In this document: in pieces, positions 1-40,955 of the stretch
Numbering within the stretch: position 1 is the first letter of the stretch
Layout of the letters: every line of letters begins with the position of its first letter
Assembly: GCA_049322955.1 (NCBI GenBank)
Contig: JBMOPU010000012.1
Coordinates: 681,517-745,516 of the forward strand
Reading direction: 5' to 3'
DNA from: Patescibacteria group bacterium
GTDB taxonomy: Bacteria > Patescibacteriota > Microgenomatia > UBA10105 > UBA927
DNA: 64,000 nucleotides
Notes under the pieces: model-generated
Told to the model about the DNA's origin: nothing
The model's input: only the letters and a program-made list of their open reading frames with translations
The model's database searches: none
Made by a program: the position numbers and the translations under genes

Positions 1-283
1 TTCTTTAAAGAACTTAAATGTAGATAATATAAAAATTATATTTCAAACTTACCTTAGTGAATATATTTTTGCTAGCTTATTACAAAAAGCAGGACAAAAA
101 TTAGGAAAAATATCACATAAAGACGCCATAAGAATCGAAAAAAGAATGAAAGGATATATCTCATCTAAAGTTAATTTAGACTTATCGAATATTGACTTCT
201 CAAAGATGGATTGGAATGGTCAATCAGGAAAAGCATTTGTTCAAAGTATTTTTGAAAAAGCATATGAGTTGATGGAGACATAA
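1..283 (+). CDS. 3' end (93 codons) of an upstream gene running off the window start. Its TAA stop overlaps the ATG of the next gene (TAATG). Possibly the partner that precedes QueC-like genes in Qat-type loci.
   Basis: Frame 2 is open from position 2 to the TAA at 281-283. Its composition (A+T-rich, Lys/Ile/Asn-rich) matches the downstream island genes. Translational coupling to 283..1593. Confidence 0.4.
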   Translation, partial: SLKNLNVDNIKIIFQTYLSEYIFASLLQKAGQKLGKISHKDAIRIEKRMKGYISSKVNLDLSNIDFSKMDWNGQSGKAFVQSIFEKAYELMET

Positions 284-1593
284 TGACAGTGAATACAATA
301 CATGTAAAAACAGGTAAGGAAGATATAAAAATAGCATCTGGTTTGGGAAATCGGATTATTGATTTTACTTCTACAAACACGAACCAGACACTAGAAAAAC
401 CCTTATGGTTGAATCGAGATTTTTACAATTTAGAGTATCAACCAGTTCTTGTTGATTTGTTTCGCTTAGCAACCTCTGTTTTTATCATCGACAAAACTAT
501 TCCGAGAATTGAAGCTTACGATCGTTGGACAAGAGATATAGAACTAAACTTGCCCGTAAGTGACCCATCAATGTGGTACGAGAATACGAATTTAATTGTT
601 AGATTTCTTAGTTTTCTCACAGGAGATCATTGGAAGGTACTTTTTACCCAAGATGAATCCACACAACCACAAAAGGATAAGCAATTAACGAAAAAAGGCC
701 ATAAGCTAGACGTAAAATCAGTTTCACTTTTTTCTGGAGGTTTAGATTCCTTCATTGGTGTAATAGATCAAATAGTTGATACCGAATCAGTAGCAATGAT
801 TGCTCACTACGATCAGGGGCAGGTTTCTAAAGTACAAAAATTATTACATGCTAGCTTGGTGAGCCAATTCCCCTCTGCAAAGGTAGAATTATTACAATTT
901 TTTGTTCAGCCTTTAGCAACCAGCGAAAATACCATGAGAAGTAGATCTCTGCTTTTTCTATCTTTAGGAAGCATAGTTGCATCTAGTATAGGTGTCAAAG
1001 AATTAATAGTTCCTGAAAACGGTTTTATAAGTTTAAACGTGCCTTTAACATACAATCGGCTTGGAAGCTTAAGTACCAGAACAACTCATCCAAACACACT
1101 AAATCTCTTTAATAGACTACTCCAAAACTTAAGAATAGGTGTTTTGGTATCCGATCCTTACAAATTTAAGACTAAAGGGGAAATGTTATCAGACTCTAAG
1201 AGCCTTGAGTATTTGGTCAGTGTTGCAAATGAAACGATGTCTTGTGCACATGCGAATGTTGGTATATATCAACATTTACCACCAAATAGACATTGTGGAT
1301 ATTGCTTGCCTTGTTTAATCAGGAGAGCTGCATTTCATAGAGTTGGCCTTGATGACCCAAAGCACTATACCTTTGATGTATTAGATTTAGATTTTTTAGA
1401 ACAAGATAGTAGCAAAACTAGTGACCTTAGGGCTGTTTTACATAGCATTGAAAGTCATAAGACAAATTCAACATTAACAAATATATTGAAGACTGGACCT
1501 ATATTTCCCATAAATGACTTAGAAAATTTTTGTAAGATATACAATATGGGAATCCTGGAATTAGAAAGCTTTTTAAGTGTATATAAAGATTAG
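283..1593 (+). CDS. QueC-like PP-loop ATPase (7-cyano-7-deazaguanine synthase fold) with a roughly 140-aa N-terminal extension. QatC/Cap9/DpdC-like.
   Basis: SGGLDS PP-loop at about aa 150. RSRSLLFLSLGS and PENGFISLNVPL blocks resemble QueC core motifs. The C-terminal CGYCLPCLIRR cysteine cluster resembles the QueC zinc site. Tight coupling to the downstream TatD gene. Confidence 0.75.
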   Translation: MTVNTIHVKTGKEDIKIASGLGNRIIDFTSTNTNQTLEKPLWLNRDFYNLEYQPVLVDLFRLATSVFIIDKTIPRIEAYDRWTRDIELNLPVSDPSMWYENTNLIVRFLSFLTGDHWKVLFTQDESTQPQKDKQLTKKGHKLDVKSVSLFSGGLDSFIGVIDQIVDTESVAMIAHYDQGQVSKVQKLLHASLVSQFPSAKVELLQFFVQPLATSENTMRSRSLLFLSLGSIVASSIGVKELIVPENGFISLNVPLTYNRLGSLSTRTTHPNTLNLFNRLLQNLRIGVLVSDPYKFKTKGEMLSDSKSLEYLVSVANETMSCAHANVGIYQHLPPNRHCGYCLPCLIRRAAFHRVGLDDPKHYTFDVLDLDFLEQDSSKTSDLRAVLHSIESHKTNSTLTNILKTGPIFPINDLENFCKIYNMGILELESFLSVYKD

Positions 1594-1599
1594 TGTATT

Positions 1600-2346
1600 A
1601 TGGATTTTAGTAAACAATTTGATTATATCGACACTCACTGTCACCTAGACTTGTATAAAAACTATACAGAGGTTATTGAACAGTCTAAAATGTCAAACAC
1701 TTCGATTGTTGCGGTAACAAACCTTCCAACAGTGTTTGAGCGAGAATGCAAGCTATTCAAAAACTATTCAAATGTAATTGTCGCATTAGGTTTTCATCCG
1801 CAATTAGTGAAATCTCATGGAGATCAGGTAAGTCAGATGTTAAGCTTTATGTCTAAAACGCAATTTATCGGTGAAATAGGGCTAGATTATCAAGAAAATA
1901 ATGATGACCTAAAAACGAAACAAAAATACATATTCCAACAAATATTGGACGGTGCAGCAACATATAGGACCAAAATACTTTCTGTGCATAGTAGAAAGTC
2001 CTCCGAAGATGTAGTAGCTATGATTGGATCTAATTTCCCCGGAAACATTATTCTTCACTGGTATAGCGGGTCACAATCGACGTTAAAAAAGGCTTTGTCT
2101 AATGGATATTTATTTTCCGTTAATCCAGCTATGACATTTTCAGCTAGTGGAAGATCTATTATTAATGGTTTGCCACTTGAAAAAATTTTAACTGAAACAG
2201 ACGGTCCATTCACGGAGGTGAATAATAAACAAAGTATCCCTTCAGACATAAGTTTGGTTCTGGACTACTTGGCAAAGTTACATAATCAAACAACTCAAAA
2301 TATCAAAGAAATAATTAAAAATAACTTTTTGAATATTTTGAATTAA
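1600..2346 (+). CDS. TatD-family metal-dependent hydrolase/DNase (QatD-like)
   Basis: N-terminal DTHCHLD motif, IGEIGLDYQ, LSVHSR, ILHWYSG, TETDGPF. This is the full TatD metal-ligand set. 6-nt gap after the QueC-like gene. Confidence 0.8.
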   Translation: MDFSKQFDYIDTHCHLDLYKNYTEVIEQSKMSNTSIVAVTNLPTVFERECKLFKNYSNVIVALGFHPQLVKSHGDQVSQMLSFMSKTQFIGEIGLDYQENNDDLKTKQKYIFQQILDGAATYRTKILSVHSRKSSEDVVAMIGSNFPGNIILHWYSGSQSTLKKALSNGYLFSVNPAMTFSASGRSIINGLPLEKILTETDGPFTEVNNKQSIPSDISLVLDYLAKLHNQTTQNIKEIIKNNFLNILN

Positions 2347-2352
2347 ACAGAT

Positions 2353-3069
2353 ATGGCAACTATTTATGGTCAACCCAGCCGATATCTCAATGCGAATAAA
2401 ACCATAAGCAAATACGGTGCATTAGCCTACCTAATTTACTTTACAGTTATCATCGGAATTGTTATTTGGCGCTTATCAATAGCCTCGTTCTCATTGCCTG
2501 CTGTTTTCGCTATCTCACTTGTATTTGGCCCGATATTACTCGTTACAGACTCACTCATGAGAAAAGAGGAGTCACTAATGTATAAGTTCCGCAGTGGCAT
2601 TGTTGGAGAAAAGCTAATCGGCGATGAATTAAAGAAACTATATGCAAGTTATACGGTATTTGAAGATGTTCATGTCCCGGGCAAGAAAGAGAATATTGAT
2701 TTTGTGGTCGTTGGCGCTACAGGAATTCATGCAATCGAGGTTAAAAATCATCATGGAAAGGTGGGTTTTGATGGAGATGCCCTCACCTTAAACGACAAAC
2801 CATTCGAAAAGGACTTTCTAAGACAGGCCATGCGCGAAGCAACCTCTCTCCATGATTATCTTGTGTCGTCGGGGATTTCTAATGCGTTTGTTGTTCCTAT
2901 CATTGTCTTTTCTCATCGCTTTGCTCTAGTTAGATTTGGGATTCAGCCTATTAAAAATGTTCGTGTTATTCAGTATCGCTGGCTCAACAAAATGATAACC
3001 AGCGAACCGAGAAGTTATCCAGATCAAAAAGTGGTTGATCTAATAAAAAATACCTACATTCAGGCCTAG
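2353..3069 (+). CDS. NERD (nuclease-related domain) protein with two N-terminal transmembrane helices
   Basis: NIDFVVVGATGIHAIEVKNHHGKV matches the NERD core (ID-x-vv-x-G-x-x-x-IE-x-K). Hydrophobic helices at aa 20-65. 6-nt gap after TatD. Confidence 0.65.
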   Translation: MATIYGQPSRYLNANKTISKYGALAYLIYFTVIIGIVIWRLSIASFSLPAVFAISLVFGPILLVTDSLMRKEESLMYKFRSGIVGEKLIGDELKKLYASYTVFEDVHVPGKKENIDFVVVGATGIHAIEVKNHHGKVGFDGDALTLNDKPFEKDFLRQAMREATSLHDYLVSSGISNAFVVPIIVFSHRFALVRFGIQPIKNVRVIQYRWLNKMITSEPRSYPDQKVVDLIKNTYIQA

Positions 3070-3109
3070 TGGCCTGTGTAAGCAAGCTTTTTTGTAAAGT
3101 TGCGGTCAG

Positions 3110-3346
3110 ATGTTAGAATATAAATATATGAATAGCGATTCCATGAATTTGAAAGAGAAAAAAGAGTTTGGAGATAAAGCTCGTGTTGCTAGAGAGAAGT
3201 TATCCCTAACTCAAGCAGATGTAGCCAAAAAAGCCAATATGACCGTCAACTACTACGCCATGATAGAGCGCGGTGAAGCTAATCTGTCCTTTGAAAAAAT
3301 GAAGAGTATCGTAAAAGTTCTGAAACTCAAGATCACTATTTCCTAG
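3110..3346 (+). CDS. XRE/Cro-C1-type helix-turn-helix transcriptional regulator
   Basis: LSLTQADVAKKANMTVNYYAMIERGE is a classic HTH_3 signature. Small protein at the operon end. The true start may be an internal Met. Confidence 0.6.
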   Translation: MLEYKYMNSDSMNLKEKKEFGDKARVAREKLSLTQADVAKKANMTVNYYAMIERGEANLSFEKMKSIVKVLKLKITIS

Positions 3347-3605
3347 CATCAAGCACTAGCTTGGCTGATTCTCTCATCATTTCGACCAGTTTTTCAGCCT
3401 CTTCAAATGTCGCTCTCTTGGGATTCGTTTGTTGTAGGCTCTCCAGAGCAGATTTGAACATCTGATCGTGATTTGCAGTATCTATAGCAAATTGCAATGT
3501 CTCTCTTGGTACTGCCTCAAACTTTTCCTTGCCGATAGCGGTAATCTCATCCCACGGCAACGAAACTATACTGCTATTTTTATCCATGAACGTATTATAG
3601 TCCAA
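3336..3605 (-). CDS. Hypothetical 89-aa protein downstream of the PLD-like gene
   Basis: ORF in the low-GC island, co-directional with the PLD-like gene at a 33-nt spacing. No recognisable motif. Confidence 0.35.
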   Translation of the reverse strand: MDYNTFMDKNSSIVSLPWDEITAIGKEKFEAVPRETLQFAIDTANHDQMFKSALESLQQTNPKRATFEEAEKLVEMMRESAKLVLDARK

Positions 3606-3638
3606 GAAGCTTACTAGAGGAAATTGCCTATATTTCCA

Positions 3639-4079
3639 CTACATGTATTTTCCGTACCCAATAAAGTTAAATAAATCTACGGCGAAGCCGCCGTCCTCAA
3701 GACGGCGCATAAATTCTCTACTTTTTGCCTGAGAAAGGATATTTAGGCTTCCTTCCCAGAGTATATTGCGGTCGATAATGGCTAGTTTCCGGTGGTGATT
3801 ACCTGTACAAAGCAGTACTTGGATGCCAATATTCTCAAATTCTTGGATTTCTAGCTCAGACTGCTCATCATAGCCATCTATGTGCGCTCGTGGGTCTCGA
3901 GTGACTATGTAGATTTTGACATCGCGCGCAACCAAGCGTCGAAACACTGGCCAAAAAGTCTTCATTCTAGCTATGGTAATGAATGGACTTTCGATAATTA
4001 CCTCATTCTGACTATTCTCTAAGTCTGTCAGAAATTTGGAGAAGAAGGTTTTCTCGTCGTGCAAAGAGGTTTTAATCAT
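3639..4079 (-). CDS. Small phospholipase-D-family (Nuc-like) nuclease, HxKx4D
   Basis: HHRKLAIID followed by GSLN fits the HxK(x)4D(x)6GSxN PLD motif. GGAGG RBS 6 nt upstream of the ATG on the minus strand. Confidence 0.65.
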   Translation of the reverse strand: MIKTSLHDEKTFFSKFLTDLENSQNEVIIESPFITIARMKTFWPVFRRLVARDVKIYIVTRDPRAHIDGYDEQSELEIQEFENIGIQVLLCTGNHHRKLAIIDRNILWEGSLNILSQAKSREFMRRLEDGGFAVDLFNFIGYGKYM

Positions 4080-11050: not shown

Positions 11051-12394
11051 TCAAACGCCGGAGGCATCCAGTTGCTTTTTAAATGCTTTTGAGCGAAGCA
11101 ACCGGTGGTAGGTTATGGCAAACCGGTGCGCTTCATCGCGTATCCGTTGTACGACCTTTATCGCACGACCCGAAAGCGGCAGGCGAAGGATCGAAAAACC
11201 TTTTTCCTCGGGGATAACCAATTCTTCTTCCCGTTTCGCAAGACCCACGAGCGGTAGCGTGATGCCAAGCTCTGTTAACACGGTTTTGGCCGTTTCCACT
11301 TGCGGTTTGCCGCCGTCAACGATCAGCAAATCAGGAAACGGCCACTCCGTATGAGCAAGTCTTCTCGTGAGGACATCGCGCATCATCGCAACGTCGGAGA
11401 TGCCTTTGACCGAGGTGATCCGAAACTTCCGATACTCTCCTTTTTCCGGTCGGCCGTCGTGCAGGACGGTCATGGAACCCACCGCCTGTTTGCCCATGAG
11501 ATTAGATATATCAAAACATTCGATGCGATGCAGTGTGTGTAACTCGGGAAAGTACCTCTGCATGCGAAGCAGGAGTTCCGAAAGTTCCTCCTGATAGATG
11601 TCGGTTGCCCCCTGATCCAAAAATATCTGCGGGTCATAACGATATGCCGATATGCCGTTTAAAAATTGCAATCGATCCTTTATGACGCCGGCTTTTTCAA
11701 AAGCCAGCGCATCGGCATACGCGCGCATTTCCTTTTCGTATTCTTTCACCAACCAGGCGGTTTTCCCCTGAAACAGGGCATTTAAGCGAAACATATTTGA
11801 ACGATACCGGTGTATTGCCTGTTCACGGGCTTTTCCTTCCAGTGTGATGATGATGCCGGGACAAGGATCGCATAACCCAAGATGGGTATAAAAACATGCT
11901 TTCCCCCTGCGTTCCTTTTGCGTGCAGTACGGAACGATACTCCGTAACTGCCGGAGGAGCCCGCGTAAAGCATATCCCGATTGGAACGGACCGTAGATGG
12001 CATTTTTGGCCGAATGCTCATAAAACTGTAGCTCTCCTTTTCGCACTAAAAGGAGCCTAGGTAATTCCTCAGAAAGGGTGATGACGACATACAGATAGCT
12101 TTTGTCATCACGTGACACTACGTTGTATTTCGGCATATACTGCCGAATGAGTTTTGCTTCCAGGAGCAGTGCATCAAATTCGCTGGTCGTAGGGATTGTT
12201 TCAATGGAGTTGATTTCCGCAACAAGTCGTACGGTTTTTTCACCGACGGCATCCTCGCGCTGAAAATACTGCCTGACCCTGCGGGACAAATCGACGGCCT
12301 TGCCGACGTAGATAACTGTCTTTTCCGCATTCCGGTAGATGTACACTCCCGGTTCTTTGGGGAGTACTGCTAATGTTTCTTTGAGGTTTTCCAT
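11051..12394 (-). CDS. uvrC: Excinuclease ABC subunit C (short form, lacking the C-terminal HhH region)
   Basis: N-terminal GIY-YIG (PGVYIYRNAEKTVIYVGKAVDLSRRVRQYF). UvrB-interacting and RNase-H-like middle regions. 447 aa. Start overlaps the upstream gene by 25 nt. Confidence 0.8.
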   Translation of the reverse strand: MENLKETLAVLPKEPGVYIYRNAEKTVIYVGKAVDLSRRVRQYFQREDAVGEKTVRLVAEINSIETIPTTSEFDALLLEAKLIRQYMPKYNVVSRDDKSYLYVVITLSEELPRLLLVRKGELQFYEHSAKNAIYGPFQSGYALRGLLRQLRSIVPYCTQKERRGKACFYTHLGLCDPCPGIIITLEGKAREQAIHRYRSNMFRLNALFQGKTAWLVKEYEKEMRAYADALAFEKAGVIKDRLQFLNGISAYRYDPQIFLDQGATDIYQEELSELLLRMQRYFPELHTLHRIECFDISNLMGKQAVGSMTVLHDGRPEKGEYRKFRITSVKGISDVAMMRDVLTRRLAHTEWPFPDLLIVDGGKPQVETAKTVLTELGITLPLVGLAKREEELVIPEEKGFSILRLPLSGRAIKVVQRIRDEAHRFAITYHRLLRSKAFKKQLDASGV

Positions 12395-36784: not shown

Positions 36785-37102
36785 TCATGTTTCGTAAGTG
36801 TTTCGGGAAAAATCGACATGCGCTACGGGAACCTTATATTTTTTCAACATGCGAACGATGCGAACGTCAATAGGGTGCATATCATCAAATCGCCATACGA
36901 TAATCTCATGAGTCGGTTTTGCGGCGTCATGTTCCTTTGCTAATAGGGAGATCTCATCAGTAGCTCCCTGCCCAAACGGAATTCTCGGGAGAATTGTCCG
37001 CACAAACTGCGTTCTTTTCGACTGCTCAAGCGAGGCAAAACACGCGGGACAGAAACATCCCGCATATTTTGCCGTTTCTTTGCCGAAGGTGCGTATCGTC
37101 AT
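36785..37102 (-). CDS. Hypothetical protein with a CxxC pair
   Basis: 105-aa ORF tightly following rarA. No recognisable domain. Confidence 0.4.
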   Translation of the reverse strand: MTIRTFGKETAKYAGCFCPACFASLEQSKRTQFVRTILPRIPFGQGATDEISLLAKEHDAAKPTHEIIVWRFDDMHPIDVRIVRMLKKYKVPVAHVDFSRNTYET

Positions 37103-38264: not shown

Positions 38265-38420
38265 AAACAAAATACCCCGCCAAGCGGGGTGAAGTTTTTC
38301 CCTACTGTTTGGCAAATCATTCCTCGCGAAGCGAGGACTCGTTGGGGCACCGCAGGTACATTTCCTCGGTTGCCGGATGGTTCACAGAGCGAGATCTCTC
38401 CCCACCACTCTTGATTTATT
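38265..38420 (-). ncRNA. SAM-I (S-box) riboswitch with intrinsic terminator in the metK 5' leader
   Basis: The leader reads AUCAAGAGUGGUGGGGAGAGA...CCGGCAACC...GGUGCcccAAcgagUCC...GAAUGAUUU. This matches the SAM-I P1/P2/P3/P4 conserved blocks. It is followed by the CCCCGC-UUGG-GCGGGG hairpin plus UAUUUUGUUU. Confidence 0.75.
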
Positions 38421-38499
38421 TACTTACTGACCAAGGTACTCTTTCTTCCGTTTATATGTCAAGAGATAATCAATGTTTGTTTACATATAACAATAAAAT

Positions 38500-38814
38500 T
38501 CATTTATGTGATTTAAGCCATGCTATTTCTTCATTATCGTTTCCCGCCATTACAATCATTACTACTTTTTTTGCCTCATAAATATCAAATAATATCCTGT
38601 CGCCCCCAGTAATTTCGTAACAAAATACTGAACCCTTTTTCTCAATTTTGCATAGTTCTGACCCATGAGTTGAACTAGGATAAGGATAATTTTCGAGAGT
38701 GGTTTTAAATCTATGCTTGACTGTCGGAGATAACCTCTTTAATAACTTTTTACATTTTTTTTGAACTTTTGCGGAAGCAAATCTAATCTCATACATGGAA
38801 GTAGTTAATCCCAA
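38500..38814 (-). CDS. RelE/ParE-superfamily toxin-like protein (third gene of the mini-island operon)
   Basis: 104 aa, basic. The C-terminal GGDRILFDIYEAKKVVMIVMAGNDNEE resembles the RelE/ParE beta-sheet core. A+T-rich. Confidence 0.4.
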   Translation of the reverse strand: MGLTTSMYEIRFASAKVQKKCKKLLKRLSPTVKHRFKTTLENYPYPSSTHGSELCKIEKKGSVFCYEITGGDRILFDIYEAKKVVMIVMAGNDNEEIAWLKSHK

Positions 38815-39038
38815 AACTTATCATCAGCCTTAGGATATGCCTCAGGATTTTTTTCAAAATCCTCTCTAATTCTTAAAATTTCAAGAACAAAGGCAGATGA
38901 TGTGTATAGACTATCAGAATCTTCCACAGATTGAGTTGTTCTACATTCAAAAAAGTAGTCTGGAACAAGAGATGTATAAGCACTTTCTGTGCTTTCAAAT
39001 ATTTTTTTCGCTAATCTGTAATCGATCTGAGTAGGCAT
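38805..39038 (-). CDS. Hypothetical 77-aa acidic protein (candidate antitoxin or partner)
   Basis: Overlaps the downstream gene by 10 nt and abuts the upstream gene. No motif recognised. Confidence 0.35.
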   Translation of the reverse strand: MPTQIDYRLAKKIFESTESAYTSLVPDYFFECRTTQSVEDSDSLYTSSAFVLEILRIREDFEKNPEAYPKADDKFWD

Positions 39039-39039
39039 A

Positions 39040-39306
39040 TTAATTACTACCTTTCTTCTTTAGTTCATGTTGTTTCATAGTTTCCAATATTACTTTTGCT
39101 AAATTTTCACCAGATGACAAAGGCAAAGTAATTCGTGATACTACCTGCCCCTTAGTCTTTTCTCTTGGATTTATATATACAAATTCGATTGTTATATCTA
39201 CATCCGTAACCGTAACACTTGCTATCTGAGCATATACACTACCTATAACTGTCGCACCATTGACATCTATATTGATAGCTTCCATTTTCTTTGATTCTTT
39301 AATCAT
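39040..39306 (-). CDS. Hypothetical 88-aa protein (DUF3467-like by eye)
   Basis: First gene of the A+T-rich three-gene operon. The VYAQIASVTVTDVDITIEFVYINP pattern is reminiscent of DUF3467. Uncertain. Confidence 0.35.
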   Translation of the reverse strand: MIKESKKMEAINIDVNGATVIGSVYAQIASVTVTDVDITIEFVYINPREKTKGQVVSRITLPLSSGENLAKVILETMKQHELKKKGSN

Positions 39307-39399
39307 AATCTATATATTTATATAACTATAATCAGCGTATATAGTATAACAGAAAAAGTCAACTGCTTATCACTAAATGGATTGATGTGGCAATCCAAA

Positions 39400-40692
39400 C
39401 TAATCTATAACCTGATATTTTATTTGTTCAGAAAATTCCACCTCCGGTAACCCCTGTACTCCCCCAAACGAAATTCTATCCAGCACCCGTTGCTCCATAT
39501 TTGCCATACGGGCGGGATAAATGGCAAAGTCCCCGAACCTATCCTGAATGGCATCTACGGCACGGGTAACGAGCAGTTTTTTGTTTTCTTCCGGAAAGAG
39601 CGATACCTGGGTACTGTCGTTTCGGTGTAACGCATAACAATACACGGCAAGCATCTTGACGTCCTTTTCGGGTGCGTGGGTAAGCATCCGGCGCATTTCG
39701 GTATAGAACTCAAGATCGGCACTCATGGCATATGACTTCTTCTCCTGGGTATGCCAATGGGTGTGATCGAAAAACATGGTGGAAATGCCGACCCCGTAGG
39801 CGCAAAACCCGTCTTTTCGGAGTCTCCTGGCCATTTTCATAGTGAGTTGGGCAAGTATCTGCCAAAGCCGCGCGTCGCGGGTACCTCGCGCGGTTCCCAA
39901 TACATAGGATTGCCCGAAACTTTTTTGGTCTTCTTCTTCGCTACTGCCAAATGCCTTGTACCTGCCGCCGTCTTCGTATCCGTGAAGCCTCAACCACCAG
40001 TGCAGTCCCGTCACCGAACGGAATGCCCGTCTTAAGCTAATGGCACTCGCCCGATACAACTCGAGCGGGGTGGTAATTCCTGCCGCGATAAGCCGGGAAC
40101 TATTTCCCTGTTTGATCCCGCAAAAGTCGGTAAGCGTCATCCGCGAAAAGGTCTCGACGATGTTTTCTTTCGTAATTGTTACTAACCCGTCGGGTTTTTG
40201 TAAGCCTGAAGCCACTTTTGCAAGATACCGATTGGGGGCAATGCCGCACGAAACGGTAATCCACTCCCCGATTTCATTTTTTATCCGCGCTTTAATCTCG
40301 CGTGCCACCTCTTCCATGGTATGCGTGGTAAGGATCGGCGCACCGTATAGGCTCATGACCATTTCATCAATCGATTCGACGCTGATATCGGCAGTGTAGG
40401 ATCGTAACAATCCGAGAAGTTTTCGGTTCACGATACGGTATTTCGGCGGATCGGGGGGTAACACCATCACCCGGGGATATATCTTTTTGGCTTCCCCCAC
40501 ATACATCCCGGTTTTGATCCCCAATACTTTTGCTTCGCGGGAGGCGGCCAAAATACAACCGTAGTCTTTGACATAAGCCGCCACCACCGTGGGCTTATGG
40601 CGAAGGAGCGGATTGGCCTGCTGTTCCACCGTGGCAAAGCACGAATTGATATCAACATGCATCATGCAAGGAGGAATCGGATTAAAGTCCAT
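39400..40692 (-). CDS. dinB: DNA polymerase IV (Y-family translesion polymerase)
   Basis: MHVDINSCFATVE catalytic N-terminus (DxD...SIDE), little-finger domain. 430 aa. Confidence 0.85.
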   Translation of the reverse strand: MDFNPIPPCMMHVDINSCFATVEQQANPLLRHKPTVVAAYVKDYGCILAASREAKVLGIKTGMYVGEAKKIYPRVMVLPPDPPKYRIVNRKLLGLLRSYTADISVESIDEMVMSLYGAPILTTHTMEEVAREIKARIKNEIGEWITVSCGIAPNRYLAKVASGLQKPDGLVTITKENIVETFSRMTLTDFCGIKQGNSSRLIAAGITTPLELYRASAISLRRAFRSVTGLHWWLRLHGYEDGGRYKAFGSSEEEDQKSFGQSYVLGTARGTRDARLWQILAQLTMKMARRLRKDGFCAYGVGISTMFFDHTHWHTQEKKSYAMSADLEFYTEMRRMLTHAPEKDVKMLAVYCYALHRNDSTQVSLFPEENKKLLVTRAVDAIQDRFGDFAIYPARMANMEQRVLDRISFGGVQGLPEVEFSEQIKYQVID

Positions 40693-40697
40693 ATGGA

Positions 40698-40955
40698 TTA
40701 ATGAATGCTTGTTTCCACTTCAACCAGTGTCCATGCCAGACTTTGACTGTCCATAACGAGTTTAAAGAAGGTCGTACCGTCGCTTACCGAAAAGATGTGA
40801 AACAACCGTCTTCCTTCCCACACGGTATGGTGTAATCCTATGGTGGTAATGTGGTACTGTCGGCCTTTCCAGTAGATGCTGTAGGGGAGCACTTTTCGGG
40901 TTTTATGATTGCTCCACAGTGTCACGGATACGGGTTCATTGATGGTTTCAGGCAT
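40698..40955 (-). CDS. Hypothetical 85-aa protein co-transcribed immediately upstream of dinB
   Basis: 5-nt gap to dinB. Resembles small accessory ORFs found with Y-family polymerases, but no motif was confirmed. Confidence 0.45.
   Translation of the reverse strand: MPETINEPVSVTLWSNHKTRKVLPYSIYWKGRQYHITTIGLHHTVWEGRRLFHIFSVSDGTTFFKLVMDSQSLAWTLVEVETSIH

What the first reader, a model, noticed from the sequence alone, without database searches (positions are those of the whole stretch)
38421..39399. Second A+T-rich mini-island (about 1 kb) carrying a three-gene operon, inserted between the metK riboswitch and dinB
The G+C content falls sharply for about 1 kb exactly between two conserved housekeeping units. 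Three small, tightly overlapping minus-strand genes lie inside (88, 77 and 104 aa, with 1-nt and 10-nt overlaps). The last resembles a RelE/ParE-fold toxin. The others have no assignable function, although the first looks DUF3467-like. A three-component toxin-antitoxin or a small accessory module acquired horizontally is the simplest reading. No integrase or repeats flank it that I could see. It sits directly upstream of the SOS-type polymerase dinB, so it might also be stress-linked.
Basis: partly seen in the sequence, partly recalled or inferred. Interest (0 to 1): 0.6.

Follow-up and report, generated by a model that had tools for sequence, protein, structure and literature searches.

The report
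Imported three-gene toxin-antitoxin cassette
A 955-base A+T-rich cassette inserted between the dinB and metK genes of a Gottesmanbacteria (CPR) genome carries a probable three-part toxin-antitoxin system, and its first gene gives the uncharacterised protein family DUF3467 its first functional context.

Summary
Window 38465-39419 has G+C 0.315 against 0.50 for the rest (z = -7.2). It carries three co-oriented minus-strand genes: A (88 aa, DUF3467), B (77 aa, no family) and C (98 aa, not 104). At least ten related Gottesmanbacteria have dinB and metK adjacent, with no trace of the three genes, so this is an insertion. It has no integrase, flanking repeats or target duplication. C's predicted structure is a RelE/YoeB/YafQ-type toxin fold, although no Pfam RelE/ParE model detects it. 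B evolves fast and changes whenever the toxin changes, as an antitoxin would. All three genes are under purifying selection (dN/dS 0.01-0.08). The A-B-C order recurs in every sufficiently long related locus found, all low-G+C and at least one from Roizmanbacteria. Close homologues of A also precede an unrelated middle protein and a different probable RelE/ParE-type third protein. DNA homology between the two module types runs only from the -35 box to A's stop codon. A with its promoter is therefore a portable cassette, most likely a regulator; I found no support for a SecB-like chaperone. Toxicity is untested. The link to dinB and stress is unsupported, because relatives hold unrelated cargo in the same slot.

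The parts
38465..39419 (.). Inserted A+T-rich cassette, about 955 bp. It runs from just after dinB codon AAA (39420-39418) to just before the retained metK -35 box.
   Evidence: G+C is 0.315, z = -7.2. Alignment with empty-site relatives L004, L003, L020, L001, L006 and L005 puts the whole stretch in one gap. The boundary is good to about 10-15 nt.
39040..39306 (-). Gene A, 88 aa, DUF3467. It is the constant, promoter-proximal third component of the module. Its role is inferred to be regulatory; the biochemistry is unknown.
   Evidence: Pfam PF11950, E = 9.4e-9, above the cut-off. 72 of 73 members of the wider family hit PF11950. The AF2 model has a disordered N-terminus followed by beta-beta-beta-alpha. 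dN/dS is 0.01. It is found in front of two different downstream gene pairs.
38805..39038 (-). Gene B, 77 aa, acidic (pI 4.4), with no known family. It is the inferred antitoxin. The N-terminus is variable; the conserved C-terminal motif is F..N...[FY]PK[MA]...W.
   Evidence: Only 2 relatives are detectable by sequence. The alignment of positional homologues has F61, P69 and W76 invariant. There are no Pfam or PDB matches. dN/dS is 0.08. B is replaced whenever C is replaced.
38500..38796 (-). Gene C, 98 aa, basic (pI 9.5), a RelE/YoeB/YafQ-fold protein. It is the inferred toxin, probably a ribosome-dependent mRNA endonuclease.
   Evidence: AF2 pLDDT is 87.6. Foldseek against the PDB gives Sa2YoeB 7v6w_E at E = 4.5e-5 with TM 0.65/0.70, followed by RelE, YafQ, HP0892/0894, HigB and similar at probability about 1.0. 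PHROG 'RelE-like toxin' matches at E = 1.4e-3. R67 aligns with RelE R61, and aromatic residue 93 aligns with RelE Y87.
39307..39399 (-). Leader of the cassette. It has a hairpin (39378-39397, TGGATTG/CAATCCA) just after the dinB stop codon, and A+T-rich promoter candidates: TTGACT-17-TACGCT ending 27 nt before the ATG, and TATAGT ending 18 nt before it.
   Evidence: The hairpin folds at -8.6 kcal/mol, z = -2.2. Promoter candidates come; the consensus scan of this region finds no more sites than chance. The promoter position in this copy is inferred, not shown.
39400..39417 (-). New 3' end of dinB (codons YQVID plus stop), supplied by the inserted DNA. It replaces the ancestral tail H-E-x-x-S-stop.
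   Evidence: Codon-level comparison with L004, L003, L020 and L001.
38433..38464 (-). Retained metK promoter: TCTTGACA (-35 hexamer at 38457-38462), an 18-nt spacer, then TACCTT (38433-38438).
   Evidence: It is conserved in all aligned relatives, and homology to L004 resumes exactly here.
38314..38420 (-). SAM-I riboswitch aptamer of the metK leader. It is a flanking host element, not part of the insert. Its terminator hairpin lies at 38274-38290.
   Evidence: Rfam RF00162, 40.7 bits, E = 1.8e-7, with a cut-off of 44.4. Homologous elements pass the threshold in L020 and L006.

Best explanation
The island is a horizontally acquired, self-contained three-gene toxin-antitoxin cassette. It landed between the last codons of dinB and the metK promoter of a Gottesmanbacteria (CPR) genome with about 50% G+C.

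C is a RelE/YoeB-fold toxin, most likely a ribosome-dependent mRNA endonuclease that arrests translation when free. B is its cognate, fast-evolving antitoxin. B probably neutralises C through its conserved aromatic C-terminal segment and lacks a recognisable DNA-binding domain. A (DUF3467) is a generic third component that travels with the operon's promoter. It most likely controls transcription of the operon, as the separate regulators PaaR and omega do in the paaR-paaA-parE and omega-epsilon-zeta systems.

Shown: the insertion, the fold of C, the conserved three-gene linkage, the promoter-plus-A cassette structure, and purifying selection on all three genes.
Inferred: toxicity of C, neutralisation by B, and the regulatory role of A.
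For: Insertion:
- dinB and metK are 228-291 nt apart in at least 10 relatives, and none of the 20 related loci carries A, B or C.
- Island G+C is 0.315 and GC3 is 0.21-0.26, against host GC3 of 0.52-0.60.
- In low-G+C loci carrying the module, module G+C (0.30-0.35) matches its surroundings (0.34-0.36).
- It is not a chimera: the same arrangement appears in 8 independently assembled contigs.

Toxin:
- The AF2 model has pLDDT 87.6, and the top 40 or so Foldseek PDB hits are almost all RelE-superfamily toxins.
- C is basic, with pI 9.5.
- R67 and aromatic residue 93 align with RelE R61 and Y87.

Linkage:
- Every C-homologue locus with enough upstream DNA has A-B-C, in several unrelated genomic contexts.
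- Two copies are decaying as whole units (L046, L047).

B as the cognate partner:
- B is immediately upstream of C, evolves fast, and is acidic in this copy.
- B is swapped for an unrelated protein wherever C is swapped.

A as the generic component:
- Homologues of A at 52-60% identity precede unrelated B' and a distinct probable RelE/ParE-type C'.
- DNA homology between an A-B-C module and an A-B'-C' module runs only from the -35 box to A's stop codon.
- A is the most constrained gene: dN/dS is 0.01, against 0.08 for B and C.
Against: - No toxicity or neutralisation data exist.
- C matches no Pfam or NCBIfam RelE/ParE model. Several canonical RelE catalytic positions (K52, K54, R81) are not conserved in the low-probability profile alignment, so the RNase chemistry is unproven.
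- A has no recognisable DNA-binding fold. The model is of only medium confidence (pLDDT 68), and neither the PDB nor BFVD gave a significant match.
- I found no conserved operator.
- B in other copies is not always acidic.
- This copy's promoter is not well defined.
Confidence: 0.62

Rival explanations
1. A is a dedicated chaperone or stabiliser of the antitoxin, working like a toxin-antitoxin-chaperone (TAC) system. A would bind a segment of B, or of B', and protect it from aggregation or proteolysis. B could then neutralise C only while A is present.
For: - The logic parallels TAC, where one accessory protein serves several unrelated TA families (PMC5105189). Here one A family serves two different B/C pairs.
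- The invariant residues of B are aromatic (F61, W76), which recalls the Trp-dependent chaperone-addiction element.
- A is the most conserved of the three genes.
Against: - A shows no similarity to SecB. hhalign probability is 3.4%, and no SecB chain appears among the Foldseek PDB hits.
- B and B' share no detectable element that a common partner could recognise (probability 0.5%).
- The conserved C-terminal motifs of B and B' differ (FPKM..DW against LPEY). That suggests they bind the toxin rather than A.
- A sits first in the operon together with the promoter, whereas the best-studied TAC chaperone gene sits last.
Confidence: 0.17
2. A is the real antitoxin, or a co-antitoxin, and B is an accessory or regulatory peptide. 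In other words, the roles of the two upstream genes are the reverse of the main model.
For: - Both A and B lie upstream of C in one operon.
- B has no recognisable family or fold.
- A is always present.
Against: - The same A family (52-60% identity) accompanies C and C', whose similarity is only marginal (hhalign probability 36%). A direct toxin-binding inhibitor would be expected to co-vary with its toxin. B does that and A does not.
- A is mildly basic (pI about 9), like the toxin.
Confidence: 0.08
3. The operon is not a toxin-antitoxin module. C would be a RelE-fold protein recruited to a non-toxic or different role, for example part of an uncharacterised phage-defence or nucleic-acid-handling system in which A and B are sensor or effector partners.
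For: - C falls outside all curated RelE/ParE sequence families, and its catalytic residues cannot be confirmed.
- The window also carries a defence island (QatC/QatD), so this genome does acquire defence cargo.
- The function of DUF3467 is unknown.
Against: - There are no significant PADLOC hits for B or C, and only a marginal one for A.
- The size, gene order, patchy distribution, decay of whole copies and fast-evolving middle gene are all typical of type II TA modules.
- No copy was found on viral contigs.
Confidence: 0.1
4. The A+T-rich stretch is native DNA with locally skewed composition, not an insertion.
For: - The copies in the window and in L052 have diverged by 13-15% yet both remain at G+C 0.30-0.35. 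So low G+C alone does not prove a recent arrival.
Against: - At least ten related genomes lack the stretch entirely. They keep an ancestral arrangement in which the dinB stop codon lies inside the metK -35 box.
- Homologous modules sit in unrelated contexts in other genomes, one of them Roizmanbacteria.
Confidence: 0.02

Closest known systems
paaR-paaA-parE three-component TA systems of E. coli O157:H7 (Hallez et al. 2010, as cited in PMC7167474)
   Same: The gene order is the same: accessory or regulator gene, then a small antitoxin, then a RelE/ParE-superfamily toxin. Both are carried on horizontally acquired DNA, and the third component is encoded first in the operon.
   Different: From my own knowledge, PaaR is a helix-turn-helix repressor, whereas A is a DUF3467 protein with a beta-beta-beta-alpha model and no HTH. 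The toxin here resembles RelE/YoeB/YafQ mRNases more than ParE. The host is a CPR bacterium, not a prophage of an enterobacterium.
Toxin-antitoxin-chaperone (TAC) systems with a SecB-like chaperone (PMC5105189, PMC6377645)
   Same: Both are tripartite, and in both one accessory family is combined with several different TA pairs. Aromatic residues are prominent in the conserved part of the antitoxin.
   Different: A is not SecB-like by sequence profile or by fold search. B and B' share no common addiction-like element. A is first in the operon and linked to the promoter.
RelBE, YefM-YoeB and DinJ-YafQ type II TA systems
   Same: The toxin fold matches, with TM 0.6-0.7 to YoeB, YafQ and RelE structures. 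The toxin is basic. A small upstream partner gene is tightly coupled to the toxin gene. The motif ITGGDRILFDI resembles YoeB ITEEHRLVYAV by eye, and in the profile alignment R67 falls on RelE R61.
   Different: C belongs to no curated sequence family. The upstream partner B has no RelB, YefM/Phd or DinJ-like domain. There is an additional conserved first gene.
omega-epsilon-zeta systems (from my own knowledge)
   Same: A separate small protein encoded first controls the operon, while a DNA-binding-deficient antitoxin and a toxin follow.
   Different: Zeta is a kinase-fold toxin and omega is a ribbon-helix-helix protein. Neither is related to C or A.

Membership tests
RelE/ParE toxin superfamily | Characteristic fold: beta-alpha-alpha followed by an antiparallel beta-sheet of three or four strands, in a protein of about 90-100 aa | tested here: met
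   The AF2 model has pLDDT 87.6 and topology b-a-a-b-b-b-b-a. Foldseek against the PDB gives E = 4.5e-5, TM 0.65/0.70 to Sa2YoeB. RelE, YafQ, HigB and HP0892/0894 fill nearly all the remaining top hits.
RelE/ParE toxin superfamily | Match to a curated sequence model (Pfam ParE_toxin, YoeB/Txe, YafQ, HigB and similar; NCBIfam) | tested here: not met
   There is no Pfam or NCBIfam hit for C at E <= 1-10. Only 1 of 17 family members gives a marginal ParE-like hit, at E = 0.031. PHROG 'RelE-like toxin' matches at E = 1.4e-3. The PDB profile search gives E. coli RelE at E = 0.5.
RelE/ParE toxin superfamily | Catalytic residues of the mRNase branch (RelE K52, K54, R61, R81, Y87; YoeB E46, R65, H83, Y84) | tested here: inconclusive
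   In an hhalign alignment to verified E. coli RelE (probability 13%), R67 aligns with R61 and aromatic residue 93 aligns with Y87. K52, K54 and R81 are not matched. The invariant K50, E52 and K54 could substitute for them, but this is unproven.
Type II toxin-antitoxin system | Small co-oriented, tightly spaced genes, with the antitoxin immediately upstream of the toxin | tested here: met
   B's stop codon and C's ATG are 8 nt apart, and A and B are 1 nt apart.
Type II toxin-antitoxin system | Toxin inhibits growth, and the antitoxin protein neutralises it by direct binding | not testable with these tools
   This needs expression and rescue experiments.
Type II toxin-antitoxin system | The antitoxin carries a DNA-binding domain and autoregulates the operon | tested here: not met
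   No member of the B alignment matches any DNA-binding family, and the PDB profile search is empty. This is what makes a separate regulator (A) plausible.
Type II toxin-antitoxin system | Patchy, mobile distribution with signs of horizontal transfer and decay | tested here: met
   The module is absent from all 20 related loci fetched by DinB similarity. It is present in diverse contexts elsewhere. Decaying copies are L046 and L047.
DUF3467 (Pfam PF11950) | Score above Pfam's gathering threshold | tested here: met
   A scores 35.7 bits against a cut-off of 25, E = 9.4e-9. 72 of 73 wider relatives hit PF11950, with a best E of 5e-17.
TAC (toxin-antitoxin-chaperone) | The third component is a SecB homologue | tested here: not met
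   hhalign of the A profile against verified E. coli and H. influenzae SecB gives probability 3.4%. There is no SecB among the Foldseek PDB hits.
TAC (toxin-antitoxin-chaperone) | The antitoxin carries a chaperone-addiction extension recognised by the chaperone | tested here: inconclusive
   B has a conserved aromatic C-terminus. However, B and B', which are paired with the same A family, share no detectable element.
paaR-paaA-parE-type tripartite TA | Gene order regulator, antitoxin, toxin, with a toxin of the RelE/ParE superfamily | tested here: met
   Gene order and fold.
paaR-paaA-parE-type tripartite TA | The first gene encodes a helix-turn-helix repressor | tested here: not met
   A is DUF3467, with a beta-beta-beta-alpha model and no HTH match.
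Integrase- or IS-borne genomic island | An integrase or transposase gene, flanking direct or inverted repeats, or a tRNA target | tested here: not met
   There are no such genes in the island. The only repeats are short and at chance level. No tRNA lies nearby. The island has no similarity to the REP/RAYT element that occupies the same slot in L002.
SAM-I riboswitch (Rfam RF00162), the flanking element | Score at or above the gathering threshold, with a downstream terminator | tested here: inconclusive
   The window scores 40.7 bits against 44.4. The homologous element scores 48.1 in L020, and SAM-I/IV scores 41.6 against 41.1 in L006. A terminator hairpin is present.

The most novel reading that the evidence does not exclude
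DUF3467 proteins define a previously undescribed class of tripartite RelE-type toxin-antitoxin modules in CPR bacteria. In this class, a portable cassette of promoter plus DUF3467 gene is recombined with different antitoxin-toxin pairs. The DUF3467 protein would be a new kind of TA controller, either a transcription factor with a novel fold or a non-SecB antitoxin chaperone. This would give a widespread family of unknown function its first functional assignment.
Probability: 0.45. Interest if true: 0.6.

Novelty: new variant of a known kind. Interest (0 to 1): 0.45.

Why it matters
- It is a cleanly documented horizontal insertion in a streamlined, uncultured CPR genome. The empty site is preserved in relatives. 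The junctions fall within the last codons of one gene and immediately upstream of the next gene's promoter.
- It puts DUF3467 into a testable functional setting. The literature search found no functional study of this Pfam family (one incidental mention of the name, none of the accession).
- The promoter-plus-A cassette combined with interchangeable toxin-antitoxin pairs is a modular architecture so far known mainly from SecB-type TAC systems. If A is a regulator or chaperone of a new fold, that widens the repertoire of TA control mechanisms.
- In practical terms, all three genes are small and can be tested in E. coli.

Tried and rejected
- **SecB-like chaperone identity for A.** Rejected: hhalign probability is 3.4% against SecB sequences checked against the PDB, and no SecB appears in the Foldseek output.
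- **YbaB/EbfC-like or PC4-like identity for A.** hhalign probabilities are 0.5% and 0.15%. Those two query sequences came from my memory and were not verified, so these are weak negatives. Foldseek's PC4 and PURA hits have E of 0.4 or worse, and one marginal Pfam PurA hit has E = 0.057.
- **Viral origin.** No relatives of A or C turned up in IMG/VR, and BFVD fold hits were uninformative.
- **Known defence system.** PADLOC gave nothing significant.
- **Mobilisation by the IS200/RAYT element seen in the same slot of L002.** There is no shared sequence apart from the flanks.
- **Flanking repeats or target-site duplication.** I found only matches of chance quality. A possible AACAAA microhomology at both junctions is too short to weigh in A+T-rich DNA.
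- **A shared A-binding motif in B and B'.** hhalign probability is 0.5%.
- **A recombination tract in the flanks next to the island.** Window-to-L004 identity is mosaic (0.56-0.98) everywhere. The dip in the last 96 nt (0.78) is not distinctive.
- **Domain fusions of A as functional hints.** The 71 representatives are all stand-alone proteins of roughly 40-125 aa, apart from one spurious repeat protein.
- **Conserved operator in the promoters.** None is convincing beyond the -35 and -10 boxes themselves.
Full report
**1. The observation**

In 300-nt windows, G+C falls from 0.50-0.53 to 0.32-0.34 between about 38400 and 39400, then returns to 0.50. After the boundaries were refined, the island is 38465-39419. 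Its G+C is 0.315, which is z = -7.2 against all equal-sized windows outside it and outside the first 4.5 kb. GC3 of its three genes is 0.21-0.26, against 0.52-0.60 for dinB, metK, rarA and other neighbours.

Three co-oriented minus-strand ORFs fill the island:
- A, 39040-39306, 88 aa
- B, 38805-39038, 77 aa
- C, 38500-38796, 98 aa

All 17 homologues start MYEIRF at the ATG, and independent gene calls give 98 aa. The genes do not overlap: the spacers are 1 nt and 8 nt.

The flanks are as described:
- DinB has IMS and IMS_C domains, and MetK has all three of its domains.
- A SAM-I aptamer lies at 38314-38420. It scores 40.7 bits, just under Rfam's 44.4 cut-off, with E = 1.8e-7.
- Its terminator hairpin is present.
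- The homologous element passes the Rfam threshold in relatives L020 and L006.

**2. It is an insertion**

A DinB-based scan of one genome per species returned 20 loci. All are Candidatus Gottesmanbacteria or unclassified Patescibacteria MAGs; several are mislabelled 'Gammaproteobacteria'.

- In at least ten of these loci, dinB is followed after 228-291 nt, at host G+C, by the metK leader. None of the 20 loci encodes a relative of A, B or C.
- A multiple alignment puts the whole island in one gap. Homology to L004 (92% DinB identity) resumes exactly at TCTTGACA, the metK -35 box. On the other side it is lost after the dinB codon AAA.
- In the empty-site genomes, the dinB reading frame runs ...CAT GAA CAA GCG TCT TGA CA. 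The dinB stop codon therefore lies inside the metK -35 hexamer. The insertion replaced the last five codons of dinB with YQVID-stop and left the metK promoter intact.
- There is no integrase, no tRNA and no meaningful flanking repeat.
- The island is not an assembly artefact. The same arrangement appears in eight independently assembled contigs from different samples.

**3. The slot is a recurrent landing site, so position next to dinB carries no functional message**

- In L002 the same position holds an IS200-like Y1 transposase (Pfam E = 2e-14). It is bracketed by two copies of a perfect REP-like palindrome, and the DinB tail is again replaced.
- L011 and L019 hold unrelated ORFs of 90 aa and 74 aa.
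- None of these inserts resembles the window's island.
- The island is also 3' of dinB, not upstream of it.

**4. Where the module comes from**

- Homologues of C (50-88% identity) occur in CPR metagenome contigs, one of them named Roizmanbacteria.
- In three such genomes the same three-gene set sits in three different neighbourhoods. There the module's G+C (0.30-0.35) matches the host's (0.34-0.36).
- A metagenome scan added 12 loci. Every one with enough upstream DNA has A-B-C in the same order. L046 and L047 are decaying copies with internal deletions or truncations that affect B and C, and in L046 also A.
- No copy was found on viral contigs.

**5. History within Gottesmanbacteria**

- Contig L052 carries a copy 85-87% identical in DNA, followed by a metK promoter and riboswitch. 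So a second lineage has the module at the same site.
- Its riboswitch flank is only 84% identical to the window's. The empty-site genome L004 is 97% identical over that flank.
- The wider window-to-L004 flanks are a mosaic of 56-98% identity.
- The synonymous divergence between the two module copies is large (dS 0.65-1.05), yet both copies remain at G+C 0.30-0.35.
- So the island is not a very recent arrival.
- I cannot tell whether it spread between lineages by recombination or inserted twice at this site.
- A third relative, L053 (71% DNA identity), sits 63 nt from a tRNA gene. G+C there is 0.36 for the module and 0.41 for the upstream flank.

**6. The three proteins**

*C.* No Pfam or NCBIfam model detects it. 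PHROGs gives 'RelE-like toxin' at E = 1.4e-3.
- The AF2 model from 17 sequences is confident (pLDDT 87.6), with topology b-a-a-b-b-b-b-a.
- Foldseek against the PDB returns Staphylococcus aureus YoeB (E = 4.5e-5, TM 0.65/0.70). After it come Thermus and E. coli RelE, YafQ, HP0892/0894, the Mycobacterium RelE proteins and HigB, nearly all at probability about 1.0.
- C is basic, with pI 9.5.
- I checked the E. coli RelE and YoeB sequences I recalled against the PDB before using them. The profile alignment to RelE has low probability but is collinear. It places R67 on RelE R61 and an aromatic residue (W/F/Y93) on Y87. K52, K54 and R81 have no counterpart.
- So the fold is established, but the RNase chemistry is inferred.

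*B.* Only two relatives are detectable by sequence.
- Positional homologues align over a conserved C-terminal segment, with F61, P69 and W76 invariant. The motif is F..N...[FY]PK[MA]...W at the very C-terminus. The N-terminal half is variable.
- B has no Pfam or PDB match.
- The window's copy is acidic, pI 4.4, although other copies are not.

*A.* It is a true DUF3467 member: 35.7 bits against a cut-off of 25, and 72 of 73 wider relatives also hit the family.
- An exhaustive profile search found only 71 representatives of this subfamily among 1.84 billion proteins. All are stand-alone small proteins with no informative fusions.
- The AF2 model (pLDDT 68) has a disordered, Lys-rich N-terminus, three beta-strands and a long C-terminal helix.
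- Neither the PDB nor the viral structure set gave a significant match. The best were PC4- and PUR-type modules at E of 0.4 or worse.
- The literature search found one incidental mention of DUF3467 and none of PF11950.

**7. Functional linkage and modularity**

- All three genes are under purifying selection between the window and L052 copies. dN/dS is 0.01 for A (49 codons), 0.08 for B and 0.08 for C.
- Close homologues of A (52-60% identity) in L048, L050 and L051 are followed by an unrelated middle protein B' (102-135 aa, C-terminal LPEY motif). After that comes a different small basic protein C' (82-93 aa).
- C' gives sub-threshold ParE_like, ParE_toxin and HigB-like hits (E 0.015-0.036). 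It has a weak collinear profile match to C (probability 36%). B and B' are unrelated (probability 0.5%).
- At the DNA level, homology between an A-B-C module (L047) and an A-B'-C' module (L050) begins at the -35 box and ends at A's stop codon. The -35 to -10 segment is 25 of 27 identical.
- The promoter plus A is therefore one portable unit, and the B-C pair is another. B co-varies with the toxin and A does not.
- In 10 of the 12 other modules examined, a perfect TATAAT ends 6-8 nt before A's ATG. It is often preceded by TG, and TTGACA lies 17 nt upstream. This implies leaderless or near-leaderless mRNA.
- The window's own promoter is less canonical and is not confidently placed.

**8. Mechanism proposed**

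C is a RelE/YoeB-type translation-dependent mRNase toxin. B is its cognate antitoxin and binds C through the conserved aromatic C-terminal segment. B lacks a DNA-binding domain.

A supplies a function that does not depend on which toxin is present. Because A is physically coupled to the promoter and comes first in the operon, transcriptional control is the most economical reading. This follows the logic of paaR-paaA-parE (PMC7167474) and of omega-epsilon-zeta (from my own knowledge).

The main rival is a TAC-like chaperone role (PMC5105189). It fits the idea of one accessory protein serving several TA pairs. It is weakened because A has no SecB similarity and B and B' share no common element.

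No terminator separates C from the metK promoter. Operon transcripts therefore probably read into the SAM riboswitch, whose own terminator would still gate metK.

**9. Novelty and verdict**

A horizontally acquired type II TA module is ordinary in itself. What is new is the third component and the modular architecture. The DUF3467 gene with its promoter forms a cassette that is combined with different RelE-superfamily TA pairs, in a bacterial radiation where TA biology is essentially unstudied.

I rate this a new variant of a known kind, of moderate interest. The function of A is the open and readily testable question.

Noticed in passing
window 283-4079: The other A+T-rich stretch at the start of the window (G+C 0.31-0.42) is a defence island. 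It has QatC (283-1593, PADLOC E = 2e-106) and QatD (1600-2346, E = 2e-71). After these come a protein with a weak PglW-like match (2353-3069), a small ORF at 3110-3346 that looks like an XRE-type HTH regulator (by eye, not scanned), and a protein at 3639-4079 (-) that matches PADLOC MkoC, MkoB and DrmC; I read an HKD/PLD-type motif in it by eye. QatA and QatB would lie beyond the window's start.
   Followed up: partly
L004 about 11270-11300; also L003, L020 and L001 at the dinB/metK junction: In genomes with the empty site, the dinB stop codon TGA lies inside the -35 hexamer of the metK/SAM-riboswitch promoter (TCT TGA CA). This is an extreme case of gene packing. It means that any insertion here must rebuild the dinB tail.
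   Followed up: partly
L002 11290-12100; L011 11277-11549; L019 2761-2985: The dinB-metK slot is a recurrent insertion site. L002 carries an IS200-like Y1 transposase (RAYT-type) flanked by two copies of the palindrome CTGACCTCAACCCCTGGGGTTGA. L011 and L019 carry unrelated ORFs of 90 aa and 74 aa with no family match.
   Followed up: partly
L024, L036, L037, L039, L040, L041, L047, L048, L050 and L051, immediately upstream of gene A: In 10 of 12 modules a perfect TATAAT, often preceded by TG, ends 6-8 nt before the ATG of the DUF3467 gene. Several also have TTGACA 17 nt upstream. The operon mRNA is probably leaderless or nearly so.
   Followed up: partly
L046 253-637; L047 2480-3171: These are decaying copies of the module. 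In L046, which has the same genomic context as L024, a deletion fuses the start of A to the end of B, and C has an internal deletion. In L047, B lacks its C-terminal motif and C lacks its N-terminal half, while A is intact.
   Followed up: partly
L052 (whole 949-nt contig): A copy of the module that has diverged by 13-15% sits at the same dinB/metK site in a lineage whose riboswitch flank is more distant from the window (84%) than that of the empty-site genome L004 (97%). Both copies stay at G+C 0.30-0.35 despite dS of 0.65-1.05. Single gain plus recombination and repeated site-specific insertion both remain possible.
   Followed up: partly
L053 812-884 (-) and 948-1764: A further relative of the module (A 78% and C about 70% identical at the protein level) lies 63 nt from a tRNA gene, which ARAGORN calls tRNA-Ser(gct). 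This is a classic island-integration neighbourhood, unlike the window's site.
   Followed up: no
window 40698-40955 (-): An 85-aa ORF ends 5 nt before dinB. It is conserved in that position in all 20 related loci (49-94% identity) and has only a weak DUF6504 match (E = 0.055). It looks like an obligate partner of this Y-family polymerase.
   Followed up: no
window 36785-37102 (-): A 105-aa ORF lies between metK and the rarA/mgsA-like AAA+ gene. It is shared only with L004 (93% identity). In most other relatives metK and rarA are about 10 nt apart, so this may be another small lineage-specific insertion. It has no PADLOC match.
   Followed up: no
window 38314-38420 (-); L001, L005 and L052, homologous positions: The SAM-I aptamer scores just under Rfam's threshold here but above it in L020. 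L001, L005 and L052 carry an extra G+C-rich hairpin insertion in the 5' part of the aptamer, just after the conserved AUCAAGAG (seen in the alignment). The best hit in L006 is SAM-I/IV rather than SAM-I.
   Followed up: partly
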